NCBI RefSeq assembly: GCF_020439865.1
Contig: NZ_JAGRPF010000073.1
Location: 10,927 to 74,926, forward strand
DNA from: Prosthecobacter sp.
GTDB taxonomy: Bacteria > Verrucomicrobiota > Verrucomicrobiia > Verrucomicrobiales > Verrucomicrobiaceae
Reading direction: 5' to 3'
Length of the DNA stretch: 64,000 nucleotides
The translations under genes were made by a program, and so were the position numbers. This document shows positions 1-51,347 of this stretch, piece by piece (the stretch's first letter is position 1; every line of letters begins with the position of its first letter). The notes under the pieces were generated by a model that had not been told where the DNA came from, made no database searches, and saw only the letters and a program-made list of their open reading frames with translations.

Positions 1-3000
1 GAGGCGGTGTGGTCAATCTTCTGGGATCCAGCGCCGGAGACAGTACGGTGGAAGGGGTCAATGTCATGGGTGGCTTCCTTGTCATGACCAATTACAACAC
101 GAACCTCAACCGTCGTGTGGGCAATGGCGCCGGTCTTACCCTGGCGGGCGGCACGCTCGTCATGGACGGCAGCGGCGCCTCCTTCACGGAAAACTTTGGC
201 AGCCTCAAGCTCAACCAGGGTGGCAACGCCATCGCCGCTGCGGGCAATGGAGTCACCAGTTTTGGTGCGGTCAGCATCGCCGGTTCGTCCATCACCCGCG
301 CGGCGGCCGGGACCATCCACTTCCAGTCCATCGGCGGCGGCGTGATCAACTTCTCGAATGCGGCGCTTCAGAACGTGGCGCGCATCGGATCCTACGCCAC
401 CTATGGTGCCAATGCGTCTTTCACGGCTTTTGCCTCTGACTGGGCCGCCACCGACGGTTCCGGCAATGTGATCGCCTACACCGGCTACGGGGTCGATTCC
501 TTTGGAGTCGGCGTGCAAACCGACGTCCAGGGCGCTGGTCTCACGGCTGCCACGACGAACTCCGTCCGTTTCAATGACGCTGCCGGAACGATCACGGGTG
601 GCGCGCTCACGCTGAACGACGGCGGCATTCTCATCACCAGCAACTACACCACGGGAACCGTGATCGGAGCCGGGGTGGACGTCACGACGGCAGCCGCTGG
701 CACAGATCTCATCATCCACAACTTTGCATCGGGGGTGGTCAACTTCGACGGCAACATCACCGGGGCACAGAACGTCGTGTTCTCCGGCGTCGGCGAACTC
801 GCGTTTGACTCGCCTAGCAGTGTGAGCAGTTCCTTGGTCAGCAGTACGACTTCCGGAGGTTCGTTCAACGTGACCGTGGACACCACAGGTCTTGTGGCAG
901 GAATGGATGTGACCGGCCTGAATATCGCGGCCGGGACGAAGATCCTCAGCATCACCGACGCCACAACGTTGGTGCTGACAAGAATGGTGACGGGCTCCGG
1001 CACCAACGACCTGACTTACGCTTCGACCACTTACACGCCGACGAACACCTACACGGGTGCCACGCACGTCACCGGCAGCGCGACCGTGTCATTCAACAAT
1101 ACCGGGGTGTTTGCCGCGAGTTCCAGCATCTTCCTCAACGGTGGCACGCTGAACTACTCCGAGGTCGGGGCGTTCAGCGGTTACATCACCCAGAACATCA
1201 CGCTGGGCGGCGGCAACGGCATCATCAATGTGACGGATGCAGGCAGCACGCTGATCTTCCGTGGGAGCACCACCAATCAGTTCTCCTCTGAAGCCAACAA
1301 CATCATCTCCGCCTACGGCACCAACAACCCCAATGCCGGCGGTCTGCAGATCATCGGTTCGGGCACCGTGCAGTTTGGCGATCGCAGCTCCGCCTCCAAC
1401 ACGCAGGACCTGCTTGGTGTGTCCAACAGTTACACCGGCCTCACCATCATCGGTGACGGTGTGAATGCAGTGCGCGTGGACATCCAGGGCCTGGGCAACG
1501 ACAACGCCCAATATTCGGTCTTCGGCACCACCCAGTCCTGGGCGGACGCCACCATCGTGAAGAACAACGCGACGATCGAGTTCTCCATGAGACGCGGTGA
1601 CGGCAGCCGGGACAATCAGATTCGCTTCCGTGAATGGTTCCAGATCGGTGAGCAGGCCGGGGACCAGATCCTGTTTGATGGGAGCACCCAGCGCCAGCCT
1701 ACATTGGATGGCATCCTGAACGTCATTGGAGATCTCACCTTCCAGACCCAGGGCAATCGCTACGGCGATGCAGGCGGCACGGGCAATTCCGAATTCCTCA
1801 TCAATCCGAATGAAGGCGGCATCATGGGTTCCGGCAACATCATCAAGATGGGAGACGGCAACCTGCGTTTCTACAAGCCTCTCCATGAATGGACGGGGGA
1901 CTTGATCCATCAGGATGGCTTCCTTGGCATCCAGATCCTTTCCGGTGCGCTCTTCAATCCGGTCGGCAAGGTCTATTTCGGCGATCCGACCGGCGCACAG
2001 ACCTCGCTGGTGCGTCTGCGCATCGAGAGTCAGTACGTGGGGAACAACACTGTGGGCATTGATTCCGGGAATGTGGATCTCACGTTCAACCGTGACATCA
2101 TCGTCAATGACAACATCCATCAGCAGGTTCAGATCTCCGCCGGTTACCTGCCGAACAGTGCGACGATTCACTTTACCAACAGCATCAACGTGGGCAACGG
2201 CTCCAGCAGCTCGGTGGACTTCTACTACGAGGACAACAACAACCTGGATCCCCTGCTCACCGGCCATGTGCAGCAGACCCTGTTCGACATCAGTGGAGAC
2301 ATCTCAGGTTCGAACAGCATCTATCTGGATGCGAACAACAACGGTGGGAACGCAAAGAACGCTCAGTTGACCGTGTTGTTCAGCGGTGACAACTCCGGCT
2401 ACAGCGGCCTGCTCACCATCGGCAAGGATGCCGGAACGACCGACAACCCGCTGCGCGGAGTGACTCTTCGCCTCGGCAATGGAACCAGCAGCGCCGCTGC
2501 GCTGGGAACGAACATAGCCGTGCGTTTCCGCAACTACGGCGTGCTGCAGCTTGCCGGCAACAGCATGACCTTCACGCGGAATTTCCTCTGGGTCGGCGGA
2601 ATCGGGTCTGTGAGCAGTGGTGCGGGCCTCTACACCTCAGCAGGCATCGAGAATGGCTCGGCCACGGCCGCCATGATCACCTTTGATTCCGGCACACAGA
2701 CAGGAGTGAACTTCCAGGACGTGGGTGTGGGTCTGCGTGATGGAGTGGCCGGTCCGCTTTTCGGCGGCGGCTCTTCGGCGCTGACCGTCGTCAAGATCGG
2801 CACCGGGGACACGGTGTTCGGTGCTGGGACAGGTGGTGACGCTGTCGTGGATGCGTTCAGCAACTACACCGGCAACACGCTGGTGCAGGAAGGCACGCTC
2901 TATGCCGGTTCGAACAACTCCTTCTCGCCCTACTCGCGCTTCATCGTGAGCGACGGGGCGAAGCTCAGCCCGTATTGGGACGAGGCGCTCACCGGTTGGG

Positions 3001-5306
3001 AGGTCACCATCGGTTCTCTTTCGGGAACTTCGGGGGCGGCGCTCAACATTGAAAACTCGAGCTTCAACGTCGGAGGTGACAACACCAGCGGCGCTGATTT
3101 CGCCGGTGTGATCAGCGGCACGGGTGATTTTTACAAGGTCGGCGGTGGGACTCAGACCCTGTCGGGAACCAATACGTTCTCGGGTCAGCTTGCCGTGGTT
3201 CAGGGTGCGCTCGTTGGGGGTAACAACGATGCGTTTGGAGATGTGACGAACACCATTTATCTCGGCGGCGCCCCCTTTGTGGGCCTCAACCCTTTGGATG
3301 CCAAGGTGGAGTTGCTGCTCTCCGGCACCGCCACGGCGGTGGCGAACCCTGTTGTCATGAATGCCTTCGACGGCAATGACGAGGGCGTCACGGTGATCGG
3401 CACCCGGCAGACGAGCGGCACCTACGGTTTCACCACAGGCGCCACGGTGGATCTCTATCAGGACATTGCCACCAACGTGTTCTTCGAAGCCGACGGCACT
3501 TCGGTGGTTCAGTTCGGTGACGCGGTGAGAGAAGGTGGCAGTGCAGCTGCCACCTCGCTGATCAAGATCGGCAGCGGCACCGTCGAACTGCAGGTCGCCA
3601 ACGACTATTTCAGCAGTGGCTCCTCCATCGCAGGAGCGGGCATCGACGGTGGCACGGTTATTCGTCACGGCACCTTGAGCGTGTTTAACGACAGCTCGCT
3701 TTCTTCGACTGTAGTGGAACTGGGTGACACCCGCTACGAACTGGCGGACGCCTATGTGGCGACGACCGCTTCTCTTCTCTTCCAGAGCAGCACCGGCAGC
3801 TTTGATGCCGCCAGCGACGGCGCCGGTGGCGCAGGCAATGGCGCCTTCCTGAATGTCGCCGCGCTGGTGGACGGCGTGACGCTCACCGCGGCGGATGTCG
3901 GCAAGCGCATCCTGGTGAAGAACGAAAGCACCAATCCAGAGTACAACGGCGTCTATGAGGTGGTGAGCGTGGATGACAGCTGCGCCCAGATGAATCTGGT
4001 GCGTGTGTCCGACTATGACGAAACGACCGAAATGCTCTATGGCAGCAGCATTGCCGTCACCAACGGCACGTCCCAGGCCGGCATGCAGTTCTTCCAGGCG
4101 TCGGCGAACGTGGACATCGTCAACAACGCCGTTTATGACCCGGTGCACTGGCTGGTGGATGTGCCGAATGCTGACGTGGCCCTGCTGGCCGCCAACAGCG
4201 GCATGACCATCTTCAATGACATCGACGTCAATGATACCAATGGCACCGGCAGCACCATCCTTGGCGGCACCTTCACCACGGGGTCGTCGGAGTTCTCAGG
4301 AAACATCACCCTGCAGCACATCGATGGCGTGGACAACGTCCGTGAGTTGATCTTCTCCTCGGCTTCGAATGACACGGGCGGTGTCAACGTCACCGGCGTC
4401 GTCTCCGAAGCCCAGGGCGGTGACACGCTCAGTGTGAACAAGCAGGGTGCAGGCACGGTGACGTTTGCCAGCGACAACACTTACACTGGCAAGACCACGG
4501 TCACCGAAGGAACACTGGCTCTTACGGGGCTGGGAAATGTTTCGGCCACTTCATGGATTGAGGTCAACACCGGAGCCACGTTTGATTTCTCCGGAACCGG
4601 CAGTGACTTCACCTACGATGGAACGATGAGCGGCTCTGGGACCGTGGTGACGGATGTGACGACCAGGCTGGTCGTGGGCACGGACGGCGGTGCAGGTGTC
4701 CTGCGTGTCGGCATGTCTTCCGATCCGACCAATGTTGGCACTGCTGGCGACGGCATTGGTGTCCTGACGGTGAACGGCAACCTGGTGCTCGCAGGTGACA
4801 CCACGGGTGCGGACCGTCTTACCCTTCAGATGGGAGCCACCAACGGCGCGGACTTCAATGATGCCGCCAACATCGCTGCGCATCTCGGTGCCGGAAACTT
4901 CAACACCTGGATCCTCACCCAGGGAACCACCTATGATGCCTACAATTCCGGCAATCATGATCGCCTCGTGGTCACCGGTGAAGCGACTTTGAACCCTGGT
5001 GGCTACGTCCGTTTCACGAGCTCTGTCAGTGATTATCAGCCGGTGGTGGGAGATGTGTTCAATCTGATCGACTGGGCCACGGTCACCGACAACGGTTTTG
5101 ATGTCGGCAACGGCGGTTCCTTCCGCTCCGGCGGCCTTCTGGGAGATCTCGAACTGCCCGATCTGAGTCTCTCAGGCCTCTTCTTTGACACGAGCTTGTT
5201 CACCTCATACGGCATTGTCGTGGTGGTGCCAGAGCCCGGCCGCATGTCGCTGCTTCTGAGCGGACTGATGCTGCTGTTCTTCCGCCGCCGCCGTCCGCGT
5301 AACTGA
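1..5306 (+). CDS. Giant passenger-associated-transport-repeat (autotransporter beta-strand repeat) protein with C-terminal PEP-CTERM sorting signal; 5' end lies outside the window
   Basis: The frame is open from the window edge (GGC GGT GTG...). It has several PATR-like repeats (e.g. YKVGGGTQTLSGTNTFSG, NKQGAGTVTFASDNTYTGKTTVTEGTL) and is G/T/N/S-rich. It ends VPEPGRMSLLLSGLMLLFFRRRRPRN (PEP, TM helix, Arg cluster) with no autotransporter beta-barrel. Confidence 0.92.
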   Translation, partial: GGVVNLLGSSAGDSTVEGVNVMGGFLVMTNYNTNLNRRVGNGAGLTLAGGTLVMDGSGASFTENFGSLKLNQGGNAIAAAGNGVTSFGAVSIAGSSITRAAAGTIHFQSIGGGVINFSNAALQNVARIGSYATYGANASFTAFASDWAATDGSGNVIAYTGYGVDSFGVGVQTDVQGAGLTAATTNSVRFNDAAGTITGGALTLNDGGILITSNYTTGTVIGAGVDVTTAAAGTDLIIHNFASGVVNFDGNITGAQNVVFSGVGELAFDSPSSVSSSLVSSTTSGGSFNVTVDTTGLVAGMDVTGLNIAAGTKILSITDATTLVLTRMVTGSGTNDLTYASTTYTPTNTYTGATHVTGSATVSFNNTGVFAASSSIFLNGGTLNYSEVGAFSGYITQNITLGGGNGIINVTDAGSTLIFRGSTTNQFSSEANNIISAYGTNNPNAGGLQIIGSGTVQFGDRSSASNTQDLLGVSNSYTGLTIIGDGVNAVRVDIQGLGNDNAQYSVFGTTQSWADATIVKNNATIEFSMRRGDGSRDNQIRFREWFQIGEQAGDQILFDGSTQRQPTLDGILNVIGDLTFQTQGNRYGDAGGTGNSEFLINPNEGGIMGSGNIIKMGDGNLRFYKPLHEWTGDLIHQDGFLGIQILSGALFNPVGKVYFGDPTGAQTSLVRLRIESQYVGNNTVGIDSGNVDLTFNRDIIVNDNIHQQVQISAGYLPNSATIHFTNSINVGNGSSSSVDFYYEDNNNLDPLLTGHVQQTLFDISGDISGSNSIYLDANNNGGNAKNAQLTVLFSGDNSGYSGLLTIGKDAGTTDNPLRGVTLRLGNGTSSAAALGTNIAVRFRNYGVLQLAGNSMTFTRNFLWVGGIGSVSSGAGLYTSAGIENGSATAAMITFDSGTQTGVNFQDVGVGLRDGVAGPLFGGGSSALTVVKIGTGDTVFGAGTGGDAVVDAFSNYTGNTLVQEGTLYAGSNNSFSPYSRFIVSDGAKLSPYWDEALTGWEVTIGSLSGTSGAALNIENSSFNVGGDNTSGADFAGVISGTGDFYKVGGGTQTLSGTNTFSGQLAVVQGALVGGNNDAFGDVTNTIYLGGAPFVGLNPLDAKVELLLSGTATAVANPVVMNAFDGNDEGVTVIGTRQTSGTYGFTTGATVDLYQDIATNVFFEADGTSVVQFGDAVREGGSAAATSLIKIGSGTVELQVANDYFSSGSSIAGAGIDGGTVIRHGTLSVFNDSSLSSTVVELGDTRYELADAYVATTASLLFQSSTGSFDAASDGAGGAGNGAFLNVAALVDGVTLTAADVGKRILVKNESTNPEYNGVYEVVSVDDSCAQMNLVRVSDYDETTEMLYGSSIAVTNGTSQAGMQFFQASANVDIVNNAVYDPVHWLVDVPNADVALLAANSGMTIFNDIDVNDTNGTGSTILGGTFTTGSSEFSGNITLQHIDGVDNVRELIFSSASNDTGGVNVTGVVSEAQGGDTLSVNKQGAGTVTFASDNTYTGKTTVTEGTLALTGLGNVSATSWIEVNTGATFDFSGTGSDFTYDGTMSGSGTVVTDVTTRLVVGTDGGAGVLRVGMSSDPTNVGTAGDGIGVLTVNGNLVLAGDTTGADRLTLQMGATNGADFNDAANIAAHLGAGNFNTWILTQGTTYDAYNSGNHDRLVVTGEATLNPGGYVRFTSSVSDYQPVVGDVFNLIDWATVTDNGFDVGNGGSFRSGGLLGDLELPDLSLSGLFFDTSLFTSYGIVVVVPEPGRMSLLLSGLMLLFFRRRRPRN

Positions 5307-5313
5307 TCGGACT

Positions 5314-5359
5314 GGTGCCTGACATGAATCCCATGTCACGGCACCTGGATCAGTTTTTT
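5314..5359 (+). terminator. Probable intrinsic terminator after the PEP-CTERM gene
   Basis: Hairpin GGTGCC-TGACATG/CATGTCA-C-GGCACC starts 7 nt after the stop; a T6 run follows a few nt downstream. Confidence 0.55.
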
Positions 5360-5377
5360 CTCACCACATCGGAGTTT

Positions 5378-5407
5378 CTGCGAACGCATTGAATCGTGCG
5401 TTCGCAG
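5378..5407. repeat. Perfect 11-bp inverted repeat in the 495-bp spacer before the Verru_Chthon cassette
   Basis: CTGCGAACGCA-N8-TGCGTTCGCAG, with no U-tract. Confidence 0.6.
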
Positions 5408-5801
5408 TCGTGATGATCCACGAACTTGTTCGAGGACGGGAGTGAAGCGATCGTCTGTTGTTACTTCGTAAAAGCAGGAATGGTCCCTCTTGGAAGAACG
5501 ATCGTGTGTCATGGATGTCAGACGCACTCCACTGGTTGTATGGAAATGCTTTGCCGCAGATTTGCTTCATGTGGCTGGCAAATGGCTGGTGTTAGTTGTG
5601 TTCCTCCAGCGGTTTCGAATTTGCGTGGGAGAATAAGCAAAAGCTGCACAGTTAGGTAGGTCCATGGTGTGATCACGGATGAGTTCATCGCGCACACATG
5701 CGCCAACCACGGCCTCATGGTTAAAAGAGCGCCCATCAGGCAAAATCGTTTCAAACCAAGGAACTGCACACGGCAGTGCTTTCAGCCCAATCAGTCATGT
5801 T

Positions 5802-8800
5802 ATGAATACATCATCCATACAAAGTAAATCATTGAAGCGCGGATTCCGGTCGCTCGGTAACCTGTTGCGTCGTCGTCGTGCGGTTGCGCTGATTACAGTG
5901 CTCAGTGTGCTGGCACTGACACTGGTGCTGCTCACCGCATTGTTAAGCGCCACGCGTGTCGAGTACAATTCCACCGTGGCACAGGTCGAAGGCGCCAAGG
6001 CACGATTGCACGCTGACTCGGTGATCAATCTGGCCATCGGTCAGATTCAGCGTGGCACCCATCAGGATGACTCCGCAACTGGTCGCGAAATATGGGCTTC
6101 GCAGCCGGGCATGATCCGGCAATACAAGGAGGACGGAACGCTGCTCCGTGGGCTCAAGCTGTATTCTGATGGAAAGATGGTGGCCACGACCGAGGCCGAA
6201 ATCGTCGCTGATACGCCTCCAACCGATTGGGACAAACAAACCGCGCAGTACGTGGACCTCAACGAGCCCGTCGTTCGGATGAACCCCACCGATCCCAGTG
6301 GTACTCCGCGGTTGTATTTCCCGATCATAGATCCGCGTGCCTATTCGACCACGTCCACCCGTTCGGTGGAAGGCTTCACCTATTCTCAGTATGCCAACGG
6401 CACCTCCGGCCAGGCTTTGGACGGCGTGGTGGGGCCGTCGAGCGGCACTGATGGTGAGAGCAAGCAACGTCTGCCGATGCCGGTGGAGTGGCTGTACATG
6501 CTCAAGGACGGCACGTTGGGACATCTCGACTCCACGGGAAAATTTGTTGGGGGTGGTGGGCAGGAAGCCACACGGGAGAATCCGATGATATCCCGTGTGG
6601 CCTTCTGGACCGACGATGAGTCCACGAAGATCAACATCAACACGGCAGGGGAGGGGACACCATGGGATACGCCACGCCTGTTCCATGAGCGTGATGGCGA
6701 GTGGGCGCGGTTCCAGCCGATGGCTTATGAGTATCAGCGCTATCCAGGACATCCCGCCACGGTCTGCATGAGCACCGTGTTGTTTCCCGGTCAGAACATG
6801 AATCCGCTGACCTCGGACACATCCGGGTTCGCCCAGGCGCTGAAGTACAAGGAGGCGATCTATGATCTCATGCCGAAAATCTTGCCGGGAGGCTCCAAGG
6901 CGGGATCGGTGCTGGTTCCGGTGAACCGCAACTTCTCCCCAACCAACTTCAGCGAGGTGCAGAAGGCGCTCGGAGAACGCCTGTTCCCCAGCGCGGACGA
7001 GTTTCTGCTGCGCTCCGCCGTGCAGAGCGATGGTGAGCGTACTGAAATCAATCTGGGAACCACTCAGATATGGGCGGGGCTTGAAAACCACGACGTGGTG
7101 GAACGCCTTCGGTCGTTTTTGACACCTCGCAGCCGTTCATCGGATCTGAACCCCTTTGGCTACCCGAAGATCTCCATGTGGCCGGTGCATCGCACCAACA
7201 CAACGCAGTACCGCACCGTCTTTGACAACGCTATCGTGAAATGCTCGCAGTTGGCAGGAAAGGACTACTTCTTCACCCGTCAGGACTGCACCAGCCAGAC
7301 GGAGCTGACCACCATCACGCGCAACAGGCAGCTCTTCGATTATCTCATGACATTGACGGGGACGCCCATTCCGGGCTTCGGAGCATCTGGTGCATCCTTT
7401 CTCAAAAAATACGGTGACAACCGGCAGCAGATTCTCGTCGAGATCTTCGACTACATTCGCAGCACCAACTTGTACGATGACAACATCGCCGCGCAGAATG
7501 TCGGCACGGATCCGAGCATCAAAGGCCTGCCGGATTCGCGGCTCGTTTCCAAATCATCCGGAATGGCATCAAAGACCTTCACGCCGATGCGCAACTCCAC
7601 CGGCGGCAGTTATCCGGGACACGGGCAGGTCATGCCCACGGTGATGCCGAAGGGCAAGGGCGAGATCTACCGCGGCATGGGCCGGTTCCTGACCATCAGC
7701 GAAGTCGGGCTTCACTTCATCTGCTGCGCGCAGGGAACCACAAAGGCCGGAGGCCTCTCCTCTCCCAAGATCGACCCCAAAGGACCTGCACCGAACGGCT
7801 ACACGCCTCCCCGGTGGCGCGGTGGTGAATGGGGCAACTACAACAACTGGTACTCGAATTTTCCCCCTCTGAGCACCACCAATCAGGATCCGAAAAACGG
7901 CTTCTACAAGAACCTGTATCCCGCCGCCCATCAGCTCGAAGGCTACGCCGGTGATGATCCCAAGCACCCAGGCTACAACCCGATGAACTGGAACTGGACC
8001 TTGGACAAGGACACTCCGCTGACAGACAACGTGAAACGGGTCCAGGCCACCTTCCTGCTCGAATGGTTCAGCCCTTCCACGGGATGGACGCTCATCAATC
8101 CAGACATCGCCATCGAAGTGGATGCGAGTTCGCTGATGATCGGCGGCAAAAAGATGTTCCCTGTCAATGGAGGCAAGACGCTCATCCGCCCGTTCAAGCA
8201 CATGAGCAGCGCCAACGGCGTGTATCAGCGAGGCGGCACCATTTCCTACCGCGCATTCCTGCAGGAGCGCAAGCTGCCCGCCGTCGCGAAGGGCGTGAAT
8301 GGCTATACATCGGGAAGCATCCTCTTCGACGACACCAACATTCCCGCGAATAACTCCCAGGTGCCTTACAAAGGAGGCATCAGCTACGCCAGTTACGCGA
8401 CCAAGTCGGGTGAGCTGAGGCAATGCAACCAGTACAATCTTGTCAGTGACTTCCTGGACATTCCCGGTGGTGATGCAGGTAAGATCCCTTTCGGTGGTGG
8501 CACGGTGGTGGTGAAGATCCTGTCGAACGACGCCTCGCCCCAGGTGCTGCAGACTTTCAACTTCAGTTTTCCGCAAGGCCAGTTTCCTTCGCCCATCCTC
8601 GCACAGAAGGATGAGGACACGCGCTGGAGTCAGAATGCTGACGGCAGCTGGCATATCTGGCAGCCTGTGCCAGCGCCCTACTGGTGGTCATTCCATTCGG
8701 ACGGAGCGCTGGGCCGGGACAAGACGGGCAAGATCACCACGGCGGCGGCCATCCCCTCCACCCGCATGGGCGGCAGGTTCCGTTACGTCGGCAACGAAAT

Positions 8801-10343
8801 GGGCAACTACGACAACAACTTCTTTTACCGGGGCAACCTGGCTCTGAATATCGACACCATTCAGTCGCTGGTGCTAAGGCATGGCGATCCGCGTCTGACA
8901 ATGGGCCAGTTTGTGGTGCCGGCCACGGAGTTCGAACAACATCGTCTTTATGGGAAACAGCGCATGGCGCACAACCTCGTGCTGCTGAACTGGAGTGAAG
9001 GCCCTGGACTCGATCGAGGTGAGGACAAGAAGGGCTGGCGCCTCGTCAAAAATGCAAACTACCACAACGCTTTCCTGCCCGACCATCCTTACTCGGCCGC
9101 CTGTGGTGCCGGATTGCAGAAGTATGGCGACTTTGATCGTGGGATCGCCAATCAGACCGACGGTGCCTACATCAACAAACCGGACGAAGGCAACACCTAC
9201 AGCGTCATCAGCAGTTCGACCGGTGAGCAGCTGGTTCCGTACTTCACGAATCCTTGGATCACCTGGATCGGAGGGGCCACCTACTTCTCACCGAACCGGC
9301 AGGTGGCCTCACCGGGCATGTTTGGCTCGTTGCCCACCGGCGTCCATCAGGCCGGTGGTTCAGGCGGCCAGAAGCGCGAACCATGGCGCACGCTGCTGTT
9401 CCGTCCCCAAACATGGAGCACCAAGCAAGGGCTGCAGCCGCATATCGGCGCGCCCAAGGTGCTGAATGGCTACGGTAAGAGTGGTCTGCCCATTCGAGGC
9501 ATCGATCCGCCCGACTATCTGTTCATGGACTTCTTCTGGATGCCCGTGGTGGAGCCTTATGTCATCAGCCAGCCAGGATCCACGGCAGGCAAGATCAACA
9601 TGAACTACCAGATGGCGCCGTTCCGCCATATCCGCCGTGCCACAGGCCTGGCGGCCGTGATGAAGAGCGAGCTTCTCAGTGCCGTTCCGGTCAGCGATGC
9701 CAACTTCTACCTGCGGCGTCCTGGTGGTGCGCCGTCTGGCAAAGGCCAGACGTGGTTCTGGAAAGACGACACCAGTTCGTCGGGGAAAAAATACTGGCAC
9801 CGCCAGATCGACGTCGATGCGACGCTGAAGCTCTTCGACGAACGCTTCAACTCTGGCTTTGCCTTCATCTCCCCTGCGCAGATCTGTGAAATGTACCTCC
9901 TGCCAAAGAAGGCAAACAGCTCGGACACTCTCGTGCCACCCTCGTGGCCGACGACCATCAGCGGCCTGCTCAAAACCGGCAGCAGCAGCATCCTGACGTT
10001 CTGGGAAAACCACGCGGCCACGGCTGAAAATCTCAAAGAGCGCCCTTACACCAACATGTATCCGCGTCTCACCACGCGCTCAAACACCTACCAGATCCAC
10101 ATGCGCATTCAGACGATCAAGAAGGCGCGTTCATCCGATCCGACGAAGTTTGTCGTTGGAAAAGACACCGTAGGTTCCGAGTACCGCGGCTCTGCGGTGA
10201 TCGAGCGCTATCTGGATCTGAACGATCCAGCCTTGGATACGACAGCCAAACTTGATTACGCGTCCGGCAGCCCGCTTTCGAAGCAGTCGATGGAGGAGTT
10301 GCACCGCTTCCGTGTCATCGCGCAAAAGCGCTTTGATCCTTGA
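5802..10343 (+). CDS. Verru_Chthon cassette protein A (PilX/GspK-like N-terminus, about 1513 aa)
   Basis: Basic leader then RRRRA|VALITVLSVLALTLVLLTALL (prepilin-like helix without Glu5). Family-type motifs include WASQPG, RVAFWTDDE..KININTA, KYGDFD.G, YINKPDEG and GSEYRGS..IERY.D. First gene of the four-gene cassette; start moved to the ATG at 5802. Confidence 0.88.
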   Translation: MNTSSIQSKSLKRGFRSLGNLLRRRRAVALITVLSVLALTLVLLTALLSATRVEYNSTVAQVEGAKARLHADSVINLAIGQIQRGTHQDDSATGREIWASQPGMIRQYKEDGTLLRGLKLYSDGKMVATTEAEIVADTPPTDWDKQTAQYVDLNEPVVRMNPTDPSGTPRLYFPIIDPRAYSTTSTRSVEGFTYSQYANGTSGQALDGVVGPSSGTDGESKQRLPMPVEWLYMLKDGTLGHLDSTGKFVGGGGQEATRENPMISRVAFWTDDESTKININTAGEGTPWDTPRLFHERDGEWARFQPMAYEYQRYPGHPATVCMSTVLFPGQNMNPLTSDTSGFAQALKYKEAIYDLMPKILPGGSKAGSVLVPVNRNFSPTNFSEVQKALGERLFPSADEFLLRSAVQSDGERTEINLGTTQIWAGLENHDVVERLRSFLTPRSRSSDLNPFGYPKISMWPVHRTNTTQYRTVFDNAIVKCSQLAGKDYFFTRQDCTSQTELTTITRNRQLFDYLMTLTGTPIPGFGASGASFLKKYGDNRQQILVEIFDYIRSTNLYDDNIAAQNVGTDPSIKGLPDSRLVSKSSGMASKTFTPMRNSTGGSYPGHGQVMPTVMPKGKGEIYRGMGRFLTISEVGLHFICCAQGTTKAGGLSSPKIDPKGPAPNGYTPPRWRGGEWGNYNNWYSNFPPLSTTNQDPKNGFYKNLYPAAHQLEGYAGDDPKHPGYNPMNWNWTLDKDTPLTDNVKRVQATFLLEWFSPSTGWTLINPDIAIEVDASSLMIGGKKMFPVNGGKTLIRPFKHMSSANGVYQRGGTISYRAFLQERKLPAVAKGVNGYTSGSILFDDTNIPANNSQVPYKGGISYASYATKSGELRQCNQYNLVSDFLDIPGGDAGKIPFGGGTVVVKILSNDASPQVLQTFNFSFPQGQFPSPILAQKDEDTRWSQNADGSWHIWQPVPAPYWWSFHSDGALGRDKTGKITTAAAIPSTRMGGRFRYVGNEMGNYDNNFFYRGNLALNIDTIQSLVLRHGDPRLTMGQFVVPATEFEQHRLYGKQRMAHNLVLLNWSEGPGLDRGEDKKGWRLVKNANYHNAFLPDHPYSAACGAGLQKYGDFDRGIANQTDGAYINKPDEGNTYSVISSSTGEQLVPYFTNPWITWIGGATYFSPNRQVASPGMFGSLPTGVHQAGGSGGQKREPWRTLLFRPQTWSTKQGLQPHIGAPKVLNGYGKSGLPIRGIDPPDYLFMDFFWMPVVEPYVISQPGSTAGKINMNYQMAPFRHIRRATGLAAVMKSELLSAVPVSDANFYLRRPGGAPSGKGQTWFWKDDTSSSGKKYWHRQIDVDATLKLFDERFNSGFAFISPAQICEMYLLPKKANSSDTLVPPSWPTTISGLLKTGSSSILTFWENHAATAENLKERPYTNMYPRLTTRSNTYQIHMRIQTIKKARSSDPTKFVVGKDTVGSEYRGSAVIERYLDLNDPALDTTAKLDYASGSPLSKQSMEELHRFRVIAQKRFDP

Positions 10344-10364
10344 TTGTCCAGACACTTCATCCCT

Positions 10365-10910
10365 ATGAAAACAGCCATCTCTCATGCATCACACCCGAGG
10401 CGCTCGAAGCGTCAGTCATCCGCCTTCTCGCTGGTGGAGGTCACCATCGCGGTCGCCATAGCCGCACTGGGTTTCATTTCTGTGCTTGGTCTGCTCCCCC
10501 AGGGAATCAACATGGCCCGCAATTCGGCGGAAATGTCCGTGGGCTCCAAAATCATTCAGAAACTCAACGGTGAGCTTCAATCAATGCCATGGAGCCACAT
10601 CACATGGACGGGCTATGGGCCGCTGCGTTTCTTCACCAACGAAGGTACGGAGATGACCACCGCAGACACCTCCGAAGAAAACATGGCGGCCTCCCTGGCC
10701 TTCGTTGCTTCCGTCTATGTGCCGGAAAAACCCCTGGATGTGGTCCTTCCGGTTGGAAGCAGCAGTGGTTCTGCCAGCGCGGCGGAGGCCTATCTGCGGC
10801 GCGTGAAGATCTGCGTCGCTACCTCCGGAGACCAGTCCTTTGACTTTAACACGGCGTCGCCCCTGCGCATCACGTCGGCCTGCACCCTCGTCGCCAAGAT
10901 GGGGGAATGA
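10365..10910 (+). CDS. Verru_Chthon cassette protein B (prepilin-type N-terminal cleavage/methylation, GspI/PilV-like)
   Basis: SSA|FSLVEVTIAVAIAALGFISVLGLLP N-terminus; about 181 aa; stop overlaps the next start (ATGA). Confidence 0.88.
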   Translation: MKTAISHASHPRRSKRQSSAFSLVEVTIAVAIAALGFISVLGLLPQGINMARNSAEMSVGSKIIQKLNGELQSMPWSHITWTGYGPLRFFTNEGTEMTTADTSEENMAASLAFVASVYVPEKPLDVVLPVGSSSGSASAAEAYLRRVKICVATSGDQSFDFNTASPLRITSACTLVAKMGE

Positions 10911-12007
10911 CCATCCACACCGCCACCCCTGTTCGAACTATGAAACATCATCATGACACATCGCGACGGCACGGATTCTCTTTGGTGGAGGTTGCGCTCT
11001 CCATGGTGATCCTCTCCATCATCCTGCTGGTGGCCGTGCAGGTGCTGGGGCAGACCCAGCGCACATGGAAGCGCGGTGTGGCCCGTGTCGAACAGTTTCG
11101 CGAAGCGCGGATGGCTTATGAAAGCATCACGCAAAATGTCAGGCAGGCGATTCTGAACACCTATCAGGCATATCAATACAACAACGGCGAAACCCCGACG
11201 ATTCCCCAGTCGAAAACCCAGCTGCCCACGAAGTACATCCGCCAGTCGGAGCTCCAGTTCGTCACAGGGCAGGCTCAGACGCTTCTTCCGGGCACCTCGG
11301 CCGCAATGCTGGTGACGCATGCCATGTTCTTCCAGGCCCGCCTGGGGCTGAGCGAGCGTGACGGTTACGAGGGCCTCAACCGGCTGTTGTGTGGCCGCGG
11401 GTATTTCATCATGCATGGCAGCGATGACGCCTTCCGTCCGCCGCATGTGACCACCACGCGGTCTCGGTTTCGGCTCTGGGAGTATCGTCCGCCGGCGGAG
11501 GAGAATACTGTCTATGCCGTCAAACCCGGGCAGTGGTTCAACAAGGCGGCCACCAATGTCATCAGCTCAGGAGAAACCATCGATGAACCCGCGGACACTC
11601 GTCCCATTGCTGAAAACATCGTCGCGCTCATCATTTCACCCCAGGTCACCTCTGACGATGCGGCCTACAAAAAGACGAAGCCTTGGTGGATCGCGCCAAA
11701 TTACTCCTATGACTCCACCAAGCTCGTCAACACCACTAGTGACAGCCCGCAGGGAACCCAGCATATGCTGCCGCCACGTGTGGTGGTGACGCTGGTGGCC
11801 ATTGATGAAGCCTCCGCCCGCAATCTGGCGGATCGCAACGAGGAGGCCATGCCAGAGCTTGTTCCGAAGGGGGCCTTCACCAACCGCGATGATCTACAGA
11901 CGGACCTCAAGACCCTGGAGGCAAAGCTGCGCTCCGAGCAGCTCAACTACCGGGTCTTCTCGTCCACCATCAACATGCGCAACTCAAAATGGGGGCTCCT
12001 CCGATGA
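10907..12007 (+). CDS. Verru_Chthon cassette protein C (prepilin-type, GspJ/PilW-like)
   Basis: RRHG|FSLVEVALSMVIL motif, FREAR.A motif, 366 aa; ATGA overlaps on both sides. Confidence 0.88.
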   Translation: MTIHTATPVRTMKHHHDTSRRHGFSLVEVALSMVILSIILLVAVQVLGQTQRTWKRGVARVEQFREARMAYESITQNVRQAILNTYQAYQYNNGETPTIPQSKTQLPTKYIRQSELQFVTGQAQTLLPGTSAAMLVTHAMFFQARLGLSERDGYEGLNRLLCGRGYFIMHGSDDAFRPPHVTTTRSRFRLWEYRPPAEENTVYAVKPGQWFNKAATNVISSGETIDEPADTRPIAENIVALIISPQVTSDDAAYKKTKPWWIAPNYSYDSTKLVNTTSDSPQGTQHMLPPRVVVTLVAIDEASARNLADRNEEAMPELVPKGAFTNRDDLQTDLKTLEAKLRSEQLNYRVFSSTINMRNSKWGLLR

Positions 12008-12654
12008 AAAACATTCGTTCACCACAAAACCTTCGCAGACGCGTCCACCGTTCAGCCTCAACCGGCTTCAGCCTGGTGGAGATTGTCGTCGTGGTTGCCA
12101 TCGTGGCCCTGATCTTCACGTTCGCCACACCCTATACTCTGGCCGCGATCCAGTCGGCCAGTATCTCATCCGCAGGGGACAGCCTGATGCTCAAGCTCTC
12201 CCAGGCCCAGCAGCGGGCGCTGACGGACAACAAACCCACCGGGGTGGATTTCTTTTTCTACACCAAGGACGGAATCACAGGCTGCCACGCCATTCAGCTC
12301 ATCCGCTACGATCCTGCCACCAATCAGGCGACTTCGATTGAGGAGCCGGTGTACTGGGGGGAAGGGCGTGTGGTGTTGGTGCAGGGAGCGCTCTCCCCGA
12401 TGTTTGCCAGCAACGTTCCGGCGTCGAGCACCGGATCTGCCACACGTGCGCCTTTCAAAGATCTCGAAGCCACCTTCAACCGGATCATCTTTTACCCCAA
12501 CGGATCCACAAACCTGCGTGTGCCGCTGCGAAACGCCTACCTGACCCTGGTTTCCATCAACAACTACAAGGAGGAGCTCGCCGATGCTCCGCCCAACTAC
12601 TACACGGTTCAGCTCGATCCCGTCACCGGGCGTGCGCATTCGTATCGTCCGTGA
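12004..12654 (+). CDS. Verru_Chthon cassette protein D (prepilin-type, GspH/FimT-like)
   Basis: STG|FSLVEIVVVVAIVAL motif, L.QAQQRA, FYPNGST, and C-terminal QLDPVTGRAHSYRP. Confidence 0.88.
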   Translation: MKNIRSPQNLRRRVHRSASTGFSLVEIVVVVAIVALIFTFATPYTLAAIQSASISSAGDSLMLKLSQAQQRALTDNKPTGVDFFFYTKDGITGCHAIQLIRYDPATNQATSIEEPVYWGEGRVVLVQGALSPMFASNVPASSTGSATRAPFKDLEATFNRIIFYPNGSTNLRVPLRNAYLTLVSINNYKEELADAPPNYYTVQLDPVTGRAHSYRP

Positions 12655-13993: not shown

Positions 13994-14476
13994 CTACTGG
14001 ATATGGGCGATCATGTCTGTGAATGAAGCAAAAGCTCGAAACTCAGCATCAATCTCTTCTCTGGTCCTGGCCCATGTAGCGATGTCCAGTCCGCCGCAAT
14101 CATGGTCAATGTGATAAATCGCTCCGAATGCGTCAGCATCAAGGCACATGCAAAGTGGATCCCCGCCGTCAGTATATGCTATCGGTAGCATGGGAATAGG
14201 GATCCTAACCTCCTCTATCGATCCGGTCACAAGCGAGTAGCCAAGCAAGAGTCGTCGGTCAAGGTCTTCAAGGCCAAGAATGTGCGAGAGACATACCACG
14301 GAGTCATCGTCAGTGGACACCTCAAACTCGGCCTCTCCGCCGCTGCATCGCTCGAGGAAATCCCTATAGTCGGAAGGTAGGGTGTGCCCAACCTGCTGTT
14401 CAAACCAACGAATGTCGGAAGGGGTCAACACTGATCGTGTCTGTTCAATAGCCGCTACGAAATCATCAACGATCAT
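13994..14476 (-). CDS. SMI1/KNR4 (SUKH-superfamily) immunity-type protein carried as an integron-like gene cassette
   Basis: LTPSDIRWFEQQVGHTLPSDYRDFLERCSGG ... LPIAYTDGGDPLCMCLD...GAIYHIDHD ... FASFTDMI. Codon usage is atypical versus neighbours; flanked by attI-like and attC sites. Confidence 0.85.
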   Translation of the reverse strand: MIVDDFVAAIEQTRSVLTPSDIRWFEQQVGHTLPSDYRDFLERCSGGEAEFEVSTDDDSVVCLSHILGLEDLDRRLLLGYSLVTGSIEEVRIPIPMLPIAYTDGGDPLCMCLDADAFGAIYHIDHDCGGLDIATWARTREEIDAEFRAFASFTDMIAHIQ

Positions 14477-14548
14477 GGTGTGAGGCGTTGTTGGTTGGGC
14501 GAACAATTCAGATAGGAAACACTTCTGTCGGTTTGCCTGCACCTTTAT

Positions 14549-14568
14549 AGCCAACAAAAGTGTCGGAA
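14549..14568 (-). mobile_element. Putative attI-like simple site (integron attachment site)
   Basis: Minus strand TTCCGAC-ACTTTT-GTTGGCT: an inverted L box, a 6-nt spacer and a GTT core, directly upstream of the cassette gene, in AT-rich DNA with a further 12-bp IR (14610-14621/14651-14662). Confidence 0.55.
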
Positions 14569-25499: not shown

Positions 25500-25550
25500 A
25501 AAGTGGGACTTTCTCAAACGCCCGCGTGGCAGGCAATCTTCAATTCATCC

Positions 25551-49640: not shown

Positions 49641-50066
49641 ATGGCCAAGGAAATCATCAAACTCATCAAGCTCCAGATCAAGGCTGGTGCCGCCAACCCC
49701 GCACCGCCCATCGGCCCTGCTCTCGGTCAGGCCGGTGTGAACATCATGGCCTTCTGCAAGGAGTTCAACGCCGCCACCTCCAAGGCTGGTGGTGATGTGC
49801 TGCCGACCGTTATCACGGTTTACAAGGACAAGAGCTTCACCTTCATCACCAAGCAGCCGCCGGCCTCAAACCTTCTGAAAAAGGTGGCCAACATCGCGTC
49901 CGGCTCCGGCGAAGCCAACAAGAAGAAGGTGGCTAAAATCACCAAAGCCCAGTTGCTTGAAGCCACCAAGCTCAAGCTTGCCGACTTGAACACCTCCGAC
50001 CTCGAACGCGCTTCCCGCATCATGGCTGGAACCGCCCGTCAGATGGGCATCGAAATCGCCGAATAA
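49641..50066 (+). CDS. rplK: 50S ribosomal protein L11
   Basis: [35 protein letters not shown]. Confidence 0.99.
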
Positions 50067-50080
50067 TCCCCCAACCCGAA

Positions 50081-50111
50081 GCAGGAGAACGTCACAGTTC
50101 GCCACCACTGC
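50081..50111 (+). promoter_or_regulatory. Putative L1-binding autoregulatory mRNA element upstream of rplA
   Basis: GCAG-GAG-AAC-loop-GTT-CGCCACCA-CTGC: two stems around an asymmetric loop with GGAG, resembling the 23S L1 site; ends 9 nt before the ATG. Confidence 0.55.
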
Positions 50112-50120
50112 ACACACACC

Positions 50121-50819: not shown

Positions 50820-50837
50820 TTCCTGCAGCACCGAAAC

Positions 50838-51347
50838 ATGAAAGCTCTCAAATCATTGCTCATTGATGACCTGCTGCAACGGGTCAATGCATCTCCGTTC
50901 CTGTTCGTCGTCGACTACACCGGCCTGAAGGTCGACAAGTTCGCCGAACTGCGCAAGCGCCTCAGCGCTGTTGGCGCCGAGATCCACGTCTTCAAAAACA
51001 ACCTTGTGAAGAAGGCTGCTGAAAAGGCCGGATTCCCGGGTGAACTGGGCGCCCACCTCACCGGGCAGAGCGCCTACGTGACCGGAGCCAAGGACGTCTG
51101 CGCCGCCGCGAAGACCATGAAGAACTTCGCCGCCGAGTTTGAAAAGCCGGTGATGAAAGTCGGCATTCTCGACGGCAAGCTGCTCGATGCCGCCGCCATC
51201 AAGGCGCTCGCCGACCTGCCTGCCCGCGAAGTTCTCCTCGCCCAGCTGCTTGGCGTTCTTCAGGCTCCTGCTTCGAAACTTGTTCGCACCCTCAACGAAC
51301 CTGCCGCATCGCTTGCACGCGTGCTCAAGGCCAAGGGCGAGCAATAA
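50838..51347 (+). CDS. rplJ: 50S ribosomal protein L10
   Basis: VDYTGLKV, LRK.L, VFKNNL, LADLPAREVLLAQLLG. Confidence 0.97.
   Translation: MKALKSLLIDDLLQRVNASPFLFVVDYTGLKVDKFAELRKRLSAVGAEIHVFKNNLVKKAAEKAGFPGELGAHLTGQSAYVTGAKDVCAAAKTMKNFAAEFEKPVMKVGILDGKLLDAAAIKALADLPAREVLLAQLLGVLQAPASKLVRTLNEPAASLARVLKAKGEQ

What the first reader, a model, noticed from the sequence alone, without database searches (positions are those of the whole stretch)
1..12654. PEP-CTERM giant protein next to its own four-pseudopilin cassette: candidate dedicated tip-complex/cargo export pair
Seen: a beta-repeat passenger-like protein of more than 1760 aa has no autotransporter barrel and ends in PEP-CTERM. It sits directly upstream of, and co-oriented with, four tightly packed prepilin-like genes (21-nt A-B gap, ATGA overlaps B-C and C-D). 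Established: the four match the Verru_Chthon A-D cassette, a multicopy operon of unknown function, and resemble the GspK/I/J/H (PilX/V/W/FimT) minor-pilin tip set. PEP-CTERM proteins are membrane-tethered and processed by exosortase. Inference: each cassette may be an exchangeable T2SS/T4P tip that selects a neighbouring PEP-CTERM beta-helix cargo, replacing the missing type V barrel. Protein A (1513 aa) is several times larger than GspK and could supply cargo specificity or act as an adhesin. No ATPase, secretin or platform gene is local, so the core machine must be shared.
Basis: partly seen in the sequence, partly recalled or inferred. Interest (0 to 1): 0.8.

Follow-up and report, generated by a model that had tools for sequence, protein, structure and literature searches.

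The report
Pilus-tip cassette linked to giant adhesin
Four genes that look like the tip of a bacterial pilus or secretion filament sit next to a giant surface-protein gene; this pairing is kept in one family of Verrucomicrobia, which hints, without proving, that the filament helps display the giant protein.

Summary
Window 3..5306 encodes the C-terminal 1,767 aa or more of a giant PATR/beta-strand-repeat protein that ends in PEP-CTERM and has no barrel. Genes A to D (5802..12654) all score above the NCBIfam cut-offs for the Verru_Chthon cassette, and the gene junctions are as described. Two corrections apply. The giant gene and A are separated by 495 nt that hold a strong intrinsic terminator. 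The likeness to GspK/I/J/H rests only on the N-terminal pilin helices and the Glu5 pattern.

The suggested census gave a split answer. In Verrucomicrobiaceae, 38 of 71 loci have a co-oriented PATR giant within 1.5 kb, against a background of about 2%. Six of seven look-ups with independent gene calls agree. This mostly traces to one ancient linkage that was later duplicated and kept. In distant cassette lineages there is no enrichment next to the cassette (11 of 67 loci; 7% near and 7% far).

Only the giant's C-terminal 750-900 aa is conserved between partner giants. No core machine gene lies near any cassette examined.

My best reading is that A-D form an alternative type IV filament tip set with a 1,500-aa cap, and that in this lineage the set is functionally tied to surface display of the giant protein. 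Cargo-specific export remains an inference, which I put at about 0.2.

The parts
1..5306 (+). 3' part of the giant gene (reading frame from nt 3; at least 1,767 aa here; complete relatives are 2,817-4,352 aa or more). It encodes a PATR/beta-strand-repeat protein that ends in PEP-CTERM and has no autotransporter barrel.
   Evidence: relatives
3807..4190 (+). Signature domain of about 130 aa inside the giant (ADVGKRILVK...NGVYEV...LVRV.D). Among all ORFs of 157 loci it occurs only in the giants that lie upstream of cassettes. It resembles domains of phage tail fibre proteins.
   Evidence: phrog_30390 at 1.2e-10; tail fibre phrog_8745 at 4.7e-8
3093..5306 (+). Conserved C-terminal module of the giant, about 740 aa. 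This is the only part alignable (30-37% identity) with giants of the paralogous 1,650-aa cassette type. The slightly larger last ~900 aa is what stays 59-68% identical in L001, where the N-terminal part has diverged.
4431..4523 (+). Best-scoring PATR / TIGR02601 repeat
5226..5297 (+). PEP-CTERM sorting signal: VPEP, a hydrophobic helix, then RRRR
   Evidence: TIGR02595, 21.5 bits against cut-off 16
5301..5359 (+). Intrinsic-terminator-like hairpin followed by T6, starting at the giant's stop codon
   Evidence: the 141-nt stretch 5300-5440, which holds both hairpins, folds at -60.8 kcal/mol, z = -5.7; a similar hairpin plus T-run in 11 of 15 orthologous loci
5378..5407 (+). Second perfect 12-bp hairpin in the spacer, partly conserved
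5620..5801 (+). Sequence blocks upstream of A that are conserved among orthologues. Candidate promoter or 5' leader of the cassette; no sigma-70 consensus and no Rfam match.
5802..10343 (+). Cassette protein A, 1,513 aa. It has a GspK-like N-terminal helix without Glu5 (RRRRA|VALITVL), a body of about 1,400 aa with no solved relative, and a conserved terminal beta-strand.
10365..10910 (+). Cassette protein B, 181 aa. A small prepilin with Glu5 and Ala at -1.
10907..12007 (+). Cassette protein C, 366 aa. A prepilin with the motif G|FSLVE.
12004..12654 (+). Cassette protein D, 216 aa. A prepilin with G|FSLVE; its N-terminus gives the best match to GspH.

Best explanation
This is a conserved five-gene surface module of Verrucomicrobiaceae. 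Genes A to D encode a complete set of minor pilins, an initiation/tip complex for a type IV filament machine (T4P or T2SS-like) that is encoded elsewhere and shared between several such cassettes in one genome. D, B and C are the Glu5-bearing subunits. A takes the GspK/PilX position as the Glu5-less cap, carries about 1,400 extra residues, and supplies its own terminal beta-strand. The neighbour is a giant Sec-exported beta-helical protein that exosortase would cleave from its PEP-CTERM membrane anchor. It has a variable distal part and a conserved C-terminal module of about 750-900 aa. In this lineage the two are inherited together because the filament capped by A-D takes part in getting the giant protein onto the cell surface or presenting it there, most plausibly by acting on its conserved C-terminal module. 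Shown here: the family memberships, the anatomy, the multicopy state, the absence of local core genes, and the conserved co-oriented linkage amid unconserved flanks. Inferred: that A-D form a filament tip, and that the two units are functionally coupled (about 0.55). The particular form of coupling is also inferred: cargo-selective export about 0.2, docking or presentation at the tip about 0.1. The rest of the 0.55, about 0.25, is co-regulation without physical contact, which I count as the first rival.
For: All four proteins score above the curated cut-offs. The Glu5 pattern is 3+1, and A's N-terminus hits only GspK among pilin models (E 3.9e-7, residues 28-105). The AF2 models show a 59-residue N-terminal helix and three long C-terminal strands that include the conserved last strand at 1501-1510. 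This fits the in-cis beta-strand rule described for GspK and CpaL (PMC13533445). Several genomes carry two or three cassette types, like the three minor-pilin/PilY1 clusters of M. xanthus that serve one machine (PMC7541494). No core genes lie in the window, and no GspE/PilB-type ATPase motif lies within 10 kb of the 77 genome loci. Linkage: 38 of 71 loci, all 38 co-oriented, against 8 of 346 background ORFs. The giant sits 28, 54 and 27 nt upstream of A, or overlaps it by 4 nt, in look-ups with independent gene calls; the one downstream giant, in Phragmitibacter, follows gene D after 110 nt. The giant lies upstream in some lineages and downstream in others, yet stays adjacent (L061, Phragmitibacter). 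The genes on the far side of the cassette are unrelated (hemB here, guaB in the paralogous type). The giant's C-terminal module and its signature domain are shared between paralogous modules. Precedent: proteins with GlyGly-CTERM and MYXO-CTERM tags need the T2SS to reach the surface (PMC6219818; PMC11980579). How PEP-CTERM proteins cross the outer membrane is unknown (PMC1569441).
Against: Many cassettes have no PATR neighbour, and distant lineages show no enrichment next to the cassette. The linkage is probably one ancient event, so the statistics overstate independence. A terminator and 495 nt separate the units in this window and in most orthologues. No A segment is specific to partner-bearing clades. 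The giant's N-terminal part can be replaced while A barely changes. B, C and D match solved pilins only in the N-terminal helix, and A has no solved structural relative (Foldseek E > 0.2). The tip-complex assignment therefore rests on the N-termini and the gene-set make-up. Most PEP-CTERM proteins cannot each have a cassette (65 in V. spinosum). There are no expression data.
Confidence: 0.45

Rival explanations
1. Parallel adhesins. A-D build a pilus tip whose 1,500-aa cap is itself the adhesin, as with PilY1, CpaL, MshQ or modular pilins. The giant PEP-CTERM beta-helix is a second, mechanistically independent adhesin or matrix protein. The two are kept together only because they are used and regulated together, for example in biofilm or floc formation.
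For: A's huge body, with non-significant best Foldseek matches to beta-sandwich and adhesin-like folds, suits a tip adhesin better than a periplasmic piston. A terminator separates the units here. Two-component regulator genes lie beside the module in two species. No partner-specific segment exists in A, and many cassettes stand alone. The organism comes from activated sludge, where PEP-CTERM proteins are reported to matter for flocs (text of PMC13453990).
Against: Co-regulation alone rarely keeps two units adjacent and co-oriented down to about 35% identity, through an upstream-to-downstream rearrangement and despite full turnover of the flanks. Gaps of 27-54 nt or a 4-nt overlap in other species suggest a true operon.
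Confidence: 0.25
2. Each cassette is an exchangeable pseudopilus tip of a T2SS that recognises the neighbouring PEP-CTERM beta-helix as its own cargo and pushes it through the secretin, replacing the missing type V barrel.
For: The same linkage data as above. GspK is proposed to sit at the pseudopilus tip and to contact substrates (PMC7541494). There is T2SS precedent for other C-terminal sorting tags. PATR proteins without a barrel need some route across the outer membrane.
Against: It is not general across the family. There is no co-variation between A and the variable part of the giant, and no partner-specific A segment. A beta-helix of 2,800-10,700 aa would be roughly 60-230 nm long (my estimate from about 22 aa and 0.48 nm per rung), which is hard to reconcile with export of substrates folded in the periplasm. 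A 1,500-aa cap is very bulky for a pseudopilus that stays under the secretin. No gsp core genes are linked anywhere.
Confidence: 0.2
3. There is no functional link. The adjacency is inherited from one ancestral arrangement and duplicated along with it, and it persists by chance or hitch-hiking.
For: Partner-bearing clades form one group on the A tree. There is no enrichment in distant lineages. A terminator lies between the units.
Against: The flanks on both sides have turned over completely while the pair stayed together. The pair survives relocation of the giant to the other side of the cassette (L061, L018, Phragmitibacter). All 38 of 38 adjacent giants are co-oriented.
Confidence: 0.1

Closest known systems
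Verru_Chthon cassette (NCBIfam/TIGRFAM TIGR02600, TIGR02598, TIGR02599, TIGR02596)
   Same: All four proteins score above the curated cut-offs. The order is A-B-C-D, the genes are tightly packed, the cassette is multicopy in related genomes, and it is restricted to Verrucomicrobiota.
   Different: Nothing differs in membership. No function has been assigned to the family, and no paper in the searched library mentions it. The conserved link to a giant PATR/PEP-CTERM gene was not found described in the library searched.
T2SS minor pseudopilin tip complex GspH-GspI-GspJ-GspK
   Same: Four subunits: three with Glu5, plus one largest Glu5-less subunit whose N-terminus gives its best match to GspK. 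D gives its best match to GspH, and C has weak matches to GspJ and PilV. The terminal beta-strand is supplied in cis (PMC13533445).
   Different: All scores are far below the family cut-offs and confined to the N-terminal 60-80 residues. A is five times the length of the GspK model (1,513 aa against a 307-position profile) and has no Foldseek or HMM match to solved GspK. The gene order is K-I-J-H. The cassette is not part of a gsp operon, and several copies occur per genome.
T4aP priming/tip complex FimU-PilV-PilW-PilX plus PilY1, including the three alternative clusters of Myxococcus xanthus
   Same: Several alternative sets of four minor pilins plus one large tip protein serve one machine and one major pilin. 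The Glu5-less PilX sits at the tip and holds the large protein (PMC7541494).
   Different: There is no separate PilY1/PilC protein and no PilX_N or PilY1 Pfam domain. The large module is fused to the cap subunit itself. The large neighbour ends in PEP-CTERM rather than in a free complementing beta-strand.
Large cis-complementing tip proteins CpaL/TadG (Tad pili) and MshQ (MSHA pili)
   Same: These are large proteins (about 600-1,200 aa) at the tip position. In CpaL the extreme C-terminal strand completes an N-terminal pilin-like sheet and the middle part is dispensable for assembly. In MshQ the C-terminal strand is modelled to add to the sheet of the separate PilK homologue MshP (PMC13533445). 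A has the same layout: an N-terminal helix, a huge middle part, and a conserved last strand.
   Different: There is no detectable sequence or fold similarity. Contact between A's N- and C-terminal parts could not be modelled, because A exceeds the 1,200-aa limit and was folded as two overlapping pieces.
C-terminal sorting tags that feed the T2SS: GlyGly-CTERM/rhombosortase (VesB) and MYXO-CTERM/myxosortase (TraA)
   Same: The tag is tripartite (motif, transmembrane helix, basic tail) on Sec-exported surface proteins, as in PEP-CTERM. These proteins need the T2SS to cross the outer membrane (PMC6219818, PMC11980579).
   Different: No dependence of PEP-CTERM proteins on a T2SS or T4P has been shown. 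Those systems use the general T2SS, with no substrate-linked minor pseudopilin sets.
Type V autotransporter passengers with PATR repeats
   Same: PATR/TIGR02601 repeats and a predicted long beta-helix.
   Different: There is no C-terminal beta-barrel; the protein ends in PEP-CTERM. It also carries a domain resembling those of phage tail fibre proteins.

Membership tests
Verru_Chthon cassette (TIGR02600/02598/02599/02596) | Each of the four proteins scores above NCBIfam's curated cut-off for its model | tested here: met
   A 939.9 against 332.3; B 72.6 against 51.4; C 368 against 256.5; D 103.9 against 70
Verru_Chthon cassette (TIGR02600/02598/02599/02596) | The four genes are contiguous and co-oriented as one cassette | tested here: met
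   a 21-nt gap and two ATGA overlaps
Verru_Chthon cassette (TIGR02600/02598/02599/02596) | Several cassettes per genome; confined to Verrucomicrobiota | tested here: met
   395 relatives; all 77 listed loci that carry an organism name are labelled Verrucomicrobiota. Several genomes contribute two or three loci (for example UBA7681: L007, L026, L035). The window's own genome could not be counted.
T2SS minor pseudopilins GspH/I/J/K | Scores above the curated cut-offs of the GspK, GspH, GspJ and GspI models | tested here: not met
   GspK 29.9 against 130; GspH 33 against 80; GspJ 16.2 against 64.85; no GspI hit. The matches cover only the N-terminal 60-80 residues.
T2SS minor pseudopilins GspH/I/J/K | Prepilin cleavage/methylation motif with Glu5 in three subunits; the largest subunit lacks Glu5 | tested here: met
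   B AFSLVE, C GFSLVE, D GFSLVE; A reads A|VALIT with Thr at +5. Ala replaces Gly at -1 in A and B.
T2SS minor pseudopilins GspH/I/J/K | Globular domains share the fold of solved GspK/I/J/H | tested here: inconclusive
   Profile searches of the PDB hit nothing for A and only the N-terminal helix for B, C and D. Foldseek with two AF2 half-models of A gave no match with E < 0.2. B, C and D were not modelled, and A could not be modelled whole.
T2SS minor pseudopilins GspH/I/J/K | Encoded within or next to a gsp operon (GspD/E/F) | tested here: not met
   for the window; one search found no GspE/PilB-type Walker motif within 10 kb in 77 loci
T4aP minor pilins plus PilY1 | A separate PilY1/PilC tip protein and a PilX_N domain | tested here: not met
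   no Pfam domain of either kind in A-D or in the giant protein
PEP-CTERM / exosortase substrates | C-terminal PEP motif, transmembrane helix and basic cluster; TIGR02595 above its cut-off | tested here: met
   21.5 bits against 16. The same holds in the P. fusiformis relative (18.3 bits).
PEP-CTERM / exosortase substrates | N-terminal signal peptide | tested here: inconclusive
   The N-terminus lies outside the window. The complete relatives L078 and L034 have a hydrophobic signal-like segment, judged by eye only.
PEP-CTERM / exosortase substrates | An exosortase (EpsH/Xrt) is encoded in the genome | not testable with these tools
   None in the 64-kb window. The rest of the genome is not available.
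Type V autotransporters | C-terminal beta-barrel translocator domain | tested here: not met
   PATR repeats only; the C-terminus is PEP-CTERM

The most novel reading that the evidence does not exclude
Giant PEP-CTERM beta-helix proteins of Verrucomicrobiaceae reach the cell surface through, or on, a type IV filament machine that is primed by a dedicated Verru_Chthon tip complex. The tip would recognise the giant's conserved C-terminal module. If so, this would be the first genetic handle on how exosortase substrates cross the outer membrane, and a filament-assisted alternative to type V secretion for PATR passengers.
Probability: 0.2. Interest if true: 0.8.

Novelty: new variant of a known kind. 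Interest (0 to 1): 0.5.

Why it matters
Two questions have stayed open for a long time. The Verru_Chthon cassette has been catalogued without any function, and nobody knows how PEP-CTERM/exosortase substrates cross the outer membrane. This locus ties the two together genetically in cultured species: Prosthecobacter fusiformis, P. fluviatilis, P. vanneervenii, Roseimicrobium gellanilyticum and Phragmitibacter flavus. That gives a concrete pair of knock-outs to try. Whether or not the giant protein is involved, a 1,500-aa Glu5-less cap subunit with no solved structural relative extends the known range of type IV filament tip proteins. The organism comes from activated sludge, where cell aggregation matters in practice.

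Tried and rejected
1. Literature. No paper in the library mentions Verru_Chthon or the four TIGR numbers. Searches combining PEP-CTERM with pseudopilin or minor pilin found nothing that links them.

2. Structure of A. The two AF2 half-models are decent (pLDDT 78 and 81), but Foldseek against the PDB gave only chance-level matches.

3. Reverse test: do giants of this type occur without cassettes? The protein search with the 221-aa giant domain returned nothing, not even orthologues. I take this as a limit of the tool, not a biological result. All my loci were fetched through A, so they cannot answer the question.

4. Co-phylogeny. A and the giant correlate (rho 0.86, or 0.81 within the window clade). 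This is expected for syntenic orthologues, so I do not count it as evidence. The informative result is the L001 mosaic.

5. A partner-specific insertion in A: none found.

6. Expression. No RNA runs hold the locus.

7. Rfam found nothing in the spacer. No sigma-70-like promoter was found.

8. My greedy ORF caller might have hidden PATR genes behind antisense ORFs. A six-frame rescan gave the same counts.

9. Downstream genes as possible operon members: hemB here and guaB in the paralogous type. These are unrelated housekeeping genes, so I rejected them as parts of the module.
Full report
WHAT IS THERE. The window starts inside a very long + strand ORF that ends at 5306. Its 1,767 residues carry PATR/TIGR02601 beta-strand repeats (NCBIfam 45.3 bits, Pfam PF12951 41.8 bits). 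They end in ...VVVVPEPGRMSLLLSGLMLLFFRRRRPRN, which scores 21.5 bits on TIGR02595 (PEP-CTERM, cut-off 16). No autotransporter barrel is present. Four + strand genes follow. A (5802..10343, 1,513 aa) scores 939.9 bits on TIGR02600. B (10365..10910) scores 72.6 on TIGR02598, C (10907..12007) 368 on TIGR02599, and D (12004..12654) 103.9 on TIGR02596. All four are above the curated cut-offs. The start of A at 5802 (MNTSS...) is the one conserved in 15 orthologues. hemB follows six bases after D. The other 51 kb hold housekeeping and miscellaneous genes (SMC, aroB, miaA, tuf, nusG, rpoB and others). They contain no T2SS/T4P ATPase, secretin or platform gene and no exosortase. The closest relatives are Prosthecobacter and other Verrucomicrobiaceae. 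The same DNA occurs in activated-sludge metagenomes.

CORRECTIONS TO THE OBSERVATION. The giant gene is not immediately upstream of A. The spacer is 495 nt. A long hairpin starts at the giant's stop codon and runs into a T6 tract (5301-5359), and a second perfect hairpin lies at 5378-5407. The 141-nt stretch 5300-5440 folds at -60.8 kcal/mol with z = -5.7 against shuffles. A comparable hairpin plus T-run follows the giant gene in 11 of 15 loci of the window's orthologous group. The last ~180 nt before A contain conserved blocks. In this lineage the giant gene and the cassette are therefore probably separate transcription units, or are joined only by read-through. In other species the gaps are 28, 54 and 27 nt, or the genes overlap by 4 nt. 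In the paralogous 1,650-aa type the gap is about 130 nt, mostly without a terminator.

HOW PILIN-LIKE ARE A-D? B, C and D have the prepilin cleavage/methylation motif with Glu5 (AFSLVE, GFSLVE, GFSLVE). A has RRRRA|VALITVL with Thr at +5, so it lacks Glu5. Lack of Glu5 is the hallmark of GspK and PilX (PMC7541494). Among pilin models A hits only GspK (E 3.9e-7), D hits GspH best, C hits a prepilin peptidase-dependent protein model best and PilV and GspJ more weakly, and B hits PilV. All these hits are far below the cut-offs and cover only the first 60-80 residues. Profile searches of the PDB find nothing for A and only the N-terminal helix for B, C and D. AF2 models of A residues 1-1200 (pLDDT 78) and 314-1513 (pLDDT 81, pTM 0.83) show a 59-residue N-terminal helix, a mixed and largely beta body, and three long C-terminal strands. 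The last of these strands is the highly conserved extreme C-terminus. Foldseek against the PDB gives no match better than E = 0.2. The set therefore has the composition of a GspHIJK / FimU-PilVWX tip set and plausibly works like one, but it fails the membership tests for those families. The layout of A (N-terminal pilin helix, huge middle, conserved last strand) is the layout reported for CpaL and GspK, where the last strand completes the cap subunit's sheet in cis (PMC13533445). I could not test that contact, because A had to be folded in two pieces.

A profile of A found 395 relatives in species-representative genomes. The listed loci that carry an organism name are all labelled Verrucomicrobiota, and the best 77 loci were fetched with 10-kb flanks. 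I called ORFs, built HMMs for A-D and for the PATR repeat, and used a PEP-CTERM pattern. A co-oriented ORF with at least two PATR repeats, usually thousands of residues long and ending in PEP-CTERM, lies within 1.5 kb of the cassette in 38 of 71 informative loci. All 38 are on the cassette's strand (six-frame rescan; first pass). Among ORFs further out, 8 of 346 (2.3%) are positive. That is similar to the ~1% implied by 65 PEP-CTERM proteins in V. spinosum (PMC1569441; the gene total is from my memory). Eight look-ups with independent gene calls and precomputed Pfam hits agree. P. fusiformis has a 2,817-aa giant upstream, R. gellanilyticum 4,352 aa upstream, P. vanneervenii 1,921 aa upstream, one JGI contig 1,200 aa upstream, another a 10,746-aa gene upstream, and Phragmitibacter flavus 3,099 aa downstream. 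One locus has none and one is uninformative.

LIMITS OF THE ASSOCIATION. The association depends on the clade. All 16 loci of the window's clade that have both flanks carry a giant: 15 upstream, and one (a ~52%-identity subclade) downstream. A second locus of that subclade, L018, lacks its upstream flank and also has the giant downstream. Thirteen of 14 loci of the 1,650-aa type have it upstream. Only 3 of 10 of the ~1,450-aa type have one, and the more distant genome loci almost never do. A second scan, seeded with a distant B-C-D-A-type protein, fetched 80 metagenomic loci. There, PATR/PEP-CTERM ORFs are no more frequent within 1.5 kb (7%) than 4-11 kb away (7%). Only 10-11 of about 70 loci have one nearby. 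On a neighbour-joining tree of A, the partner-bearing clades form one group (bootstrap 60) that is sister to the ~1,450-aa clade. The headline per-clade P value (9e-8) therefore overstates independence. The data fit one ancient giant-plus-cassette module that was duplicated and retained, plus a few rearrangements and possibly a few separate recruitments (L068, the downstream type in the 1,450-aa clade).

WHY RETENTION STILL MEANS SOMETHING. The genes outside the module are not conserved: hemB, guaB, sulfatases, regulators and integrase-like genes appear in different loci. The pair nevertheless stays adjacent and co-oriented down to about 35-39% identity in A and about 30% in the giant, and it survives relocation of the giant from one side of the cassette to the other. 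The giants of the two paralogous module types align only over their last ~750 residues. That part contains a ~130-aa signature domain which, within my 157 loci, occurs only in the upstream-type partners and resembles domains of phage tail fibre proteins. In L001, A is 84% identical to the window's A and the giant's last ~900 residues are 59-68% identical. The rest of that giant is only 16-40% identical, against 70-85% in other orthologues. The giant is thus a mosaic of a variable distal part and a conserved membrane-proximal module. If anything in it co-functions with the cassette, it is that module. I found no A segment specific to partner-bearing clades.

MECHANISM. Established knowledge: minor pilins prime type IV filaments and sit at their tip; several alternative sets can serve one machine (M. 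xanthus); and the Glu5-less subunit caps the complex and holds either PilY1 or, in the T2SS, is thought to contact substrates. Proteins with the analogous tripartite tags GlyGly-CTERM and MYXO-CTERM need the T2SS to reach the surface. The outer-membrane route of PEP-CTERM proteins is unknown. From this and the anatomy, my best reading is that A-D form an alternative tip/initiation set for a machine encoded elsewhere (about 0.75), and that in this lineage the set is functionally tied to surface display of the giant protein (about 0.55 overall). I split the tie as follows: cargo-selective export about 0.2, docking or presentation about 0.1, and co-regulated but independent adhesins about 0.25. 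A linkage without any function gets about 0.1.

ARGUMENTS AGAINST THE CLASSICAL T2SS PISTON. A beta-helix of 2,800-10,700 aa would be tens to hundreds of nanometres long (my estimate). A 1,500-aa cap is bulky for a periplasmic pseudopilus. Most PEP-CTERM proteins have no cassette. In the window a terminator separates the units.

NOVELTY AND SCORE. The cassette family is already catalogued, so membership is not new. Three things were not found described in the searched literature: the reading of A as a giant cis-complementing cap, the conserved five-gene module with a mosaic PEP-CTERM giant, and the clade-limited nature of that link. I rate the finding a new variant of a known kind, with interest 0.5. 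It gives a concrete and testable lead on an open question in cultured organisms, but it rests on synteny and N-terminal motifs only.

Noticed in passing
window 3807-4190 (inside the giant gene): A ~130-aa domain (ADVGKRILVK..NGVYEV..LVRVSDYDE) matches phage families: phrog_30390 at 1.2e-10, tail fibre phrog_8745 at 4.7e-8, and head decoration phrog_2647 at 9e-6. It also weakly matches PDB 9efk orf22 (E 0.002). Pfam and NCBIfam do not cover it.
   Followed up: partly
L001 1-9953 compared with window 3-5306: The giant gene is a mosaic. Its last ~900 aa are 59-68% identical, but the part N-terminal to that is only 16-40% identical, although the adjacent A proteins are 84% identical. This suggests replacement or rapid diversification of the distal part.
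   Followed up: partly
L166 1-9855 (JGI contig Ga0620594_0000050): The gene upstream of a 1,677-aa A protein is called with a product of 10,746 aa and has no Pfam record. The giants next to cassettes range from about 1,200 to more than 10,000 aa.
   Followed up: no
L078 483-1223; L160 16956-18802: A LuxR/NarL-type response regulator lies just upstream of the giant gene in P. fusiformis. A HisKA_3 kinase plus a LuxR-type regulator lie just downstream of the cassette in Roseimicrobium. These are candidate regulators of the module.
   Followed up: no
window 5802-5900 and 10365-10450: In the window's lineage both A (RRRRA|VALITVL) and B (SSA|FSLVEV) have Ala instead of the usual Gly at position -1 of the prepilin cleavage site. 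Most relatives have Gly. Cleavage efficiency may differ.
   Followed up: no
L053, L055, L067; L068, L070, L073, L080-L159; L139-L148: The cassette's architecture varies. There are tandem A-A-B-C-D forms, and B-C-D-A or B-C-A-D orders in Chthoniobacterales-like lineages. In one metagenomic group (L139, L141, L144, L148; L140 lacks the 281-aa gene) B-C-D lies on the strand opposite A, with an ~800-aa gene and a 281-aa gene in between.
   Followed up: no
window 13994-14557 (-) and 14710-16341 (-): A SUKH-1/SMI1-KNR4 immunity-like protein lies next to a 543-aa protein with a GH75 chitosanase-like domain. This could be a toxin/immunity-style pair.
   Followed up: no
window 25503-27779 (+): An unusual 758-aa fusion combines a trypsin-like peptidase, a 3-keto-disaccharide hydrolase domain, a transglutaminase-like core and a TPR.
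   Followed up: no
window 60439-63372 (-): A 977-aa protein has two FHA domains fused to an ABC ATPase and ABC-2 permease domains.
   Followed up: no
window 49866-51923: My longest-ORF calls here are on the - strand and have no Pfam hit. The position between nusG and rpoB suggests that the true genes are the + strand ribosomal protein genes (rplK, rplA, rplJ, rplL). I did not check this.
   Followed up: no
window 4800-10800: Near-identical DNA (98% of sampled words) occurs in activated-sludge metagenome runs, and more diverged copies in other sludge and wastewater runs. No RNA run holds it.
   Followed up: partly
(query window 3540-4202): The large protein search returned no hit at all for a 221-aa piece of the giant protein, not even the ~70%-identical orthologues that exist in public genomes. 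Giant repeat proteins may escape that index.
   Followed up: no
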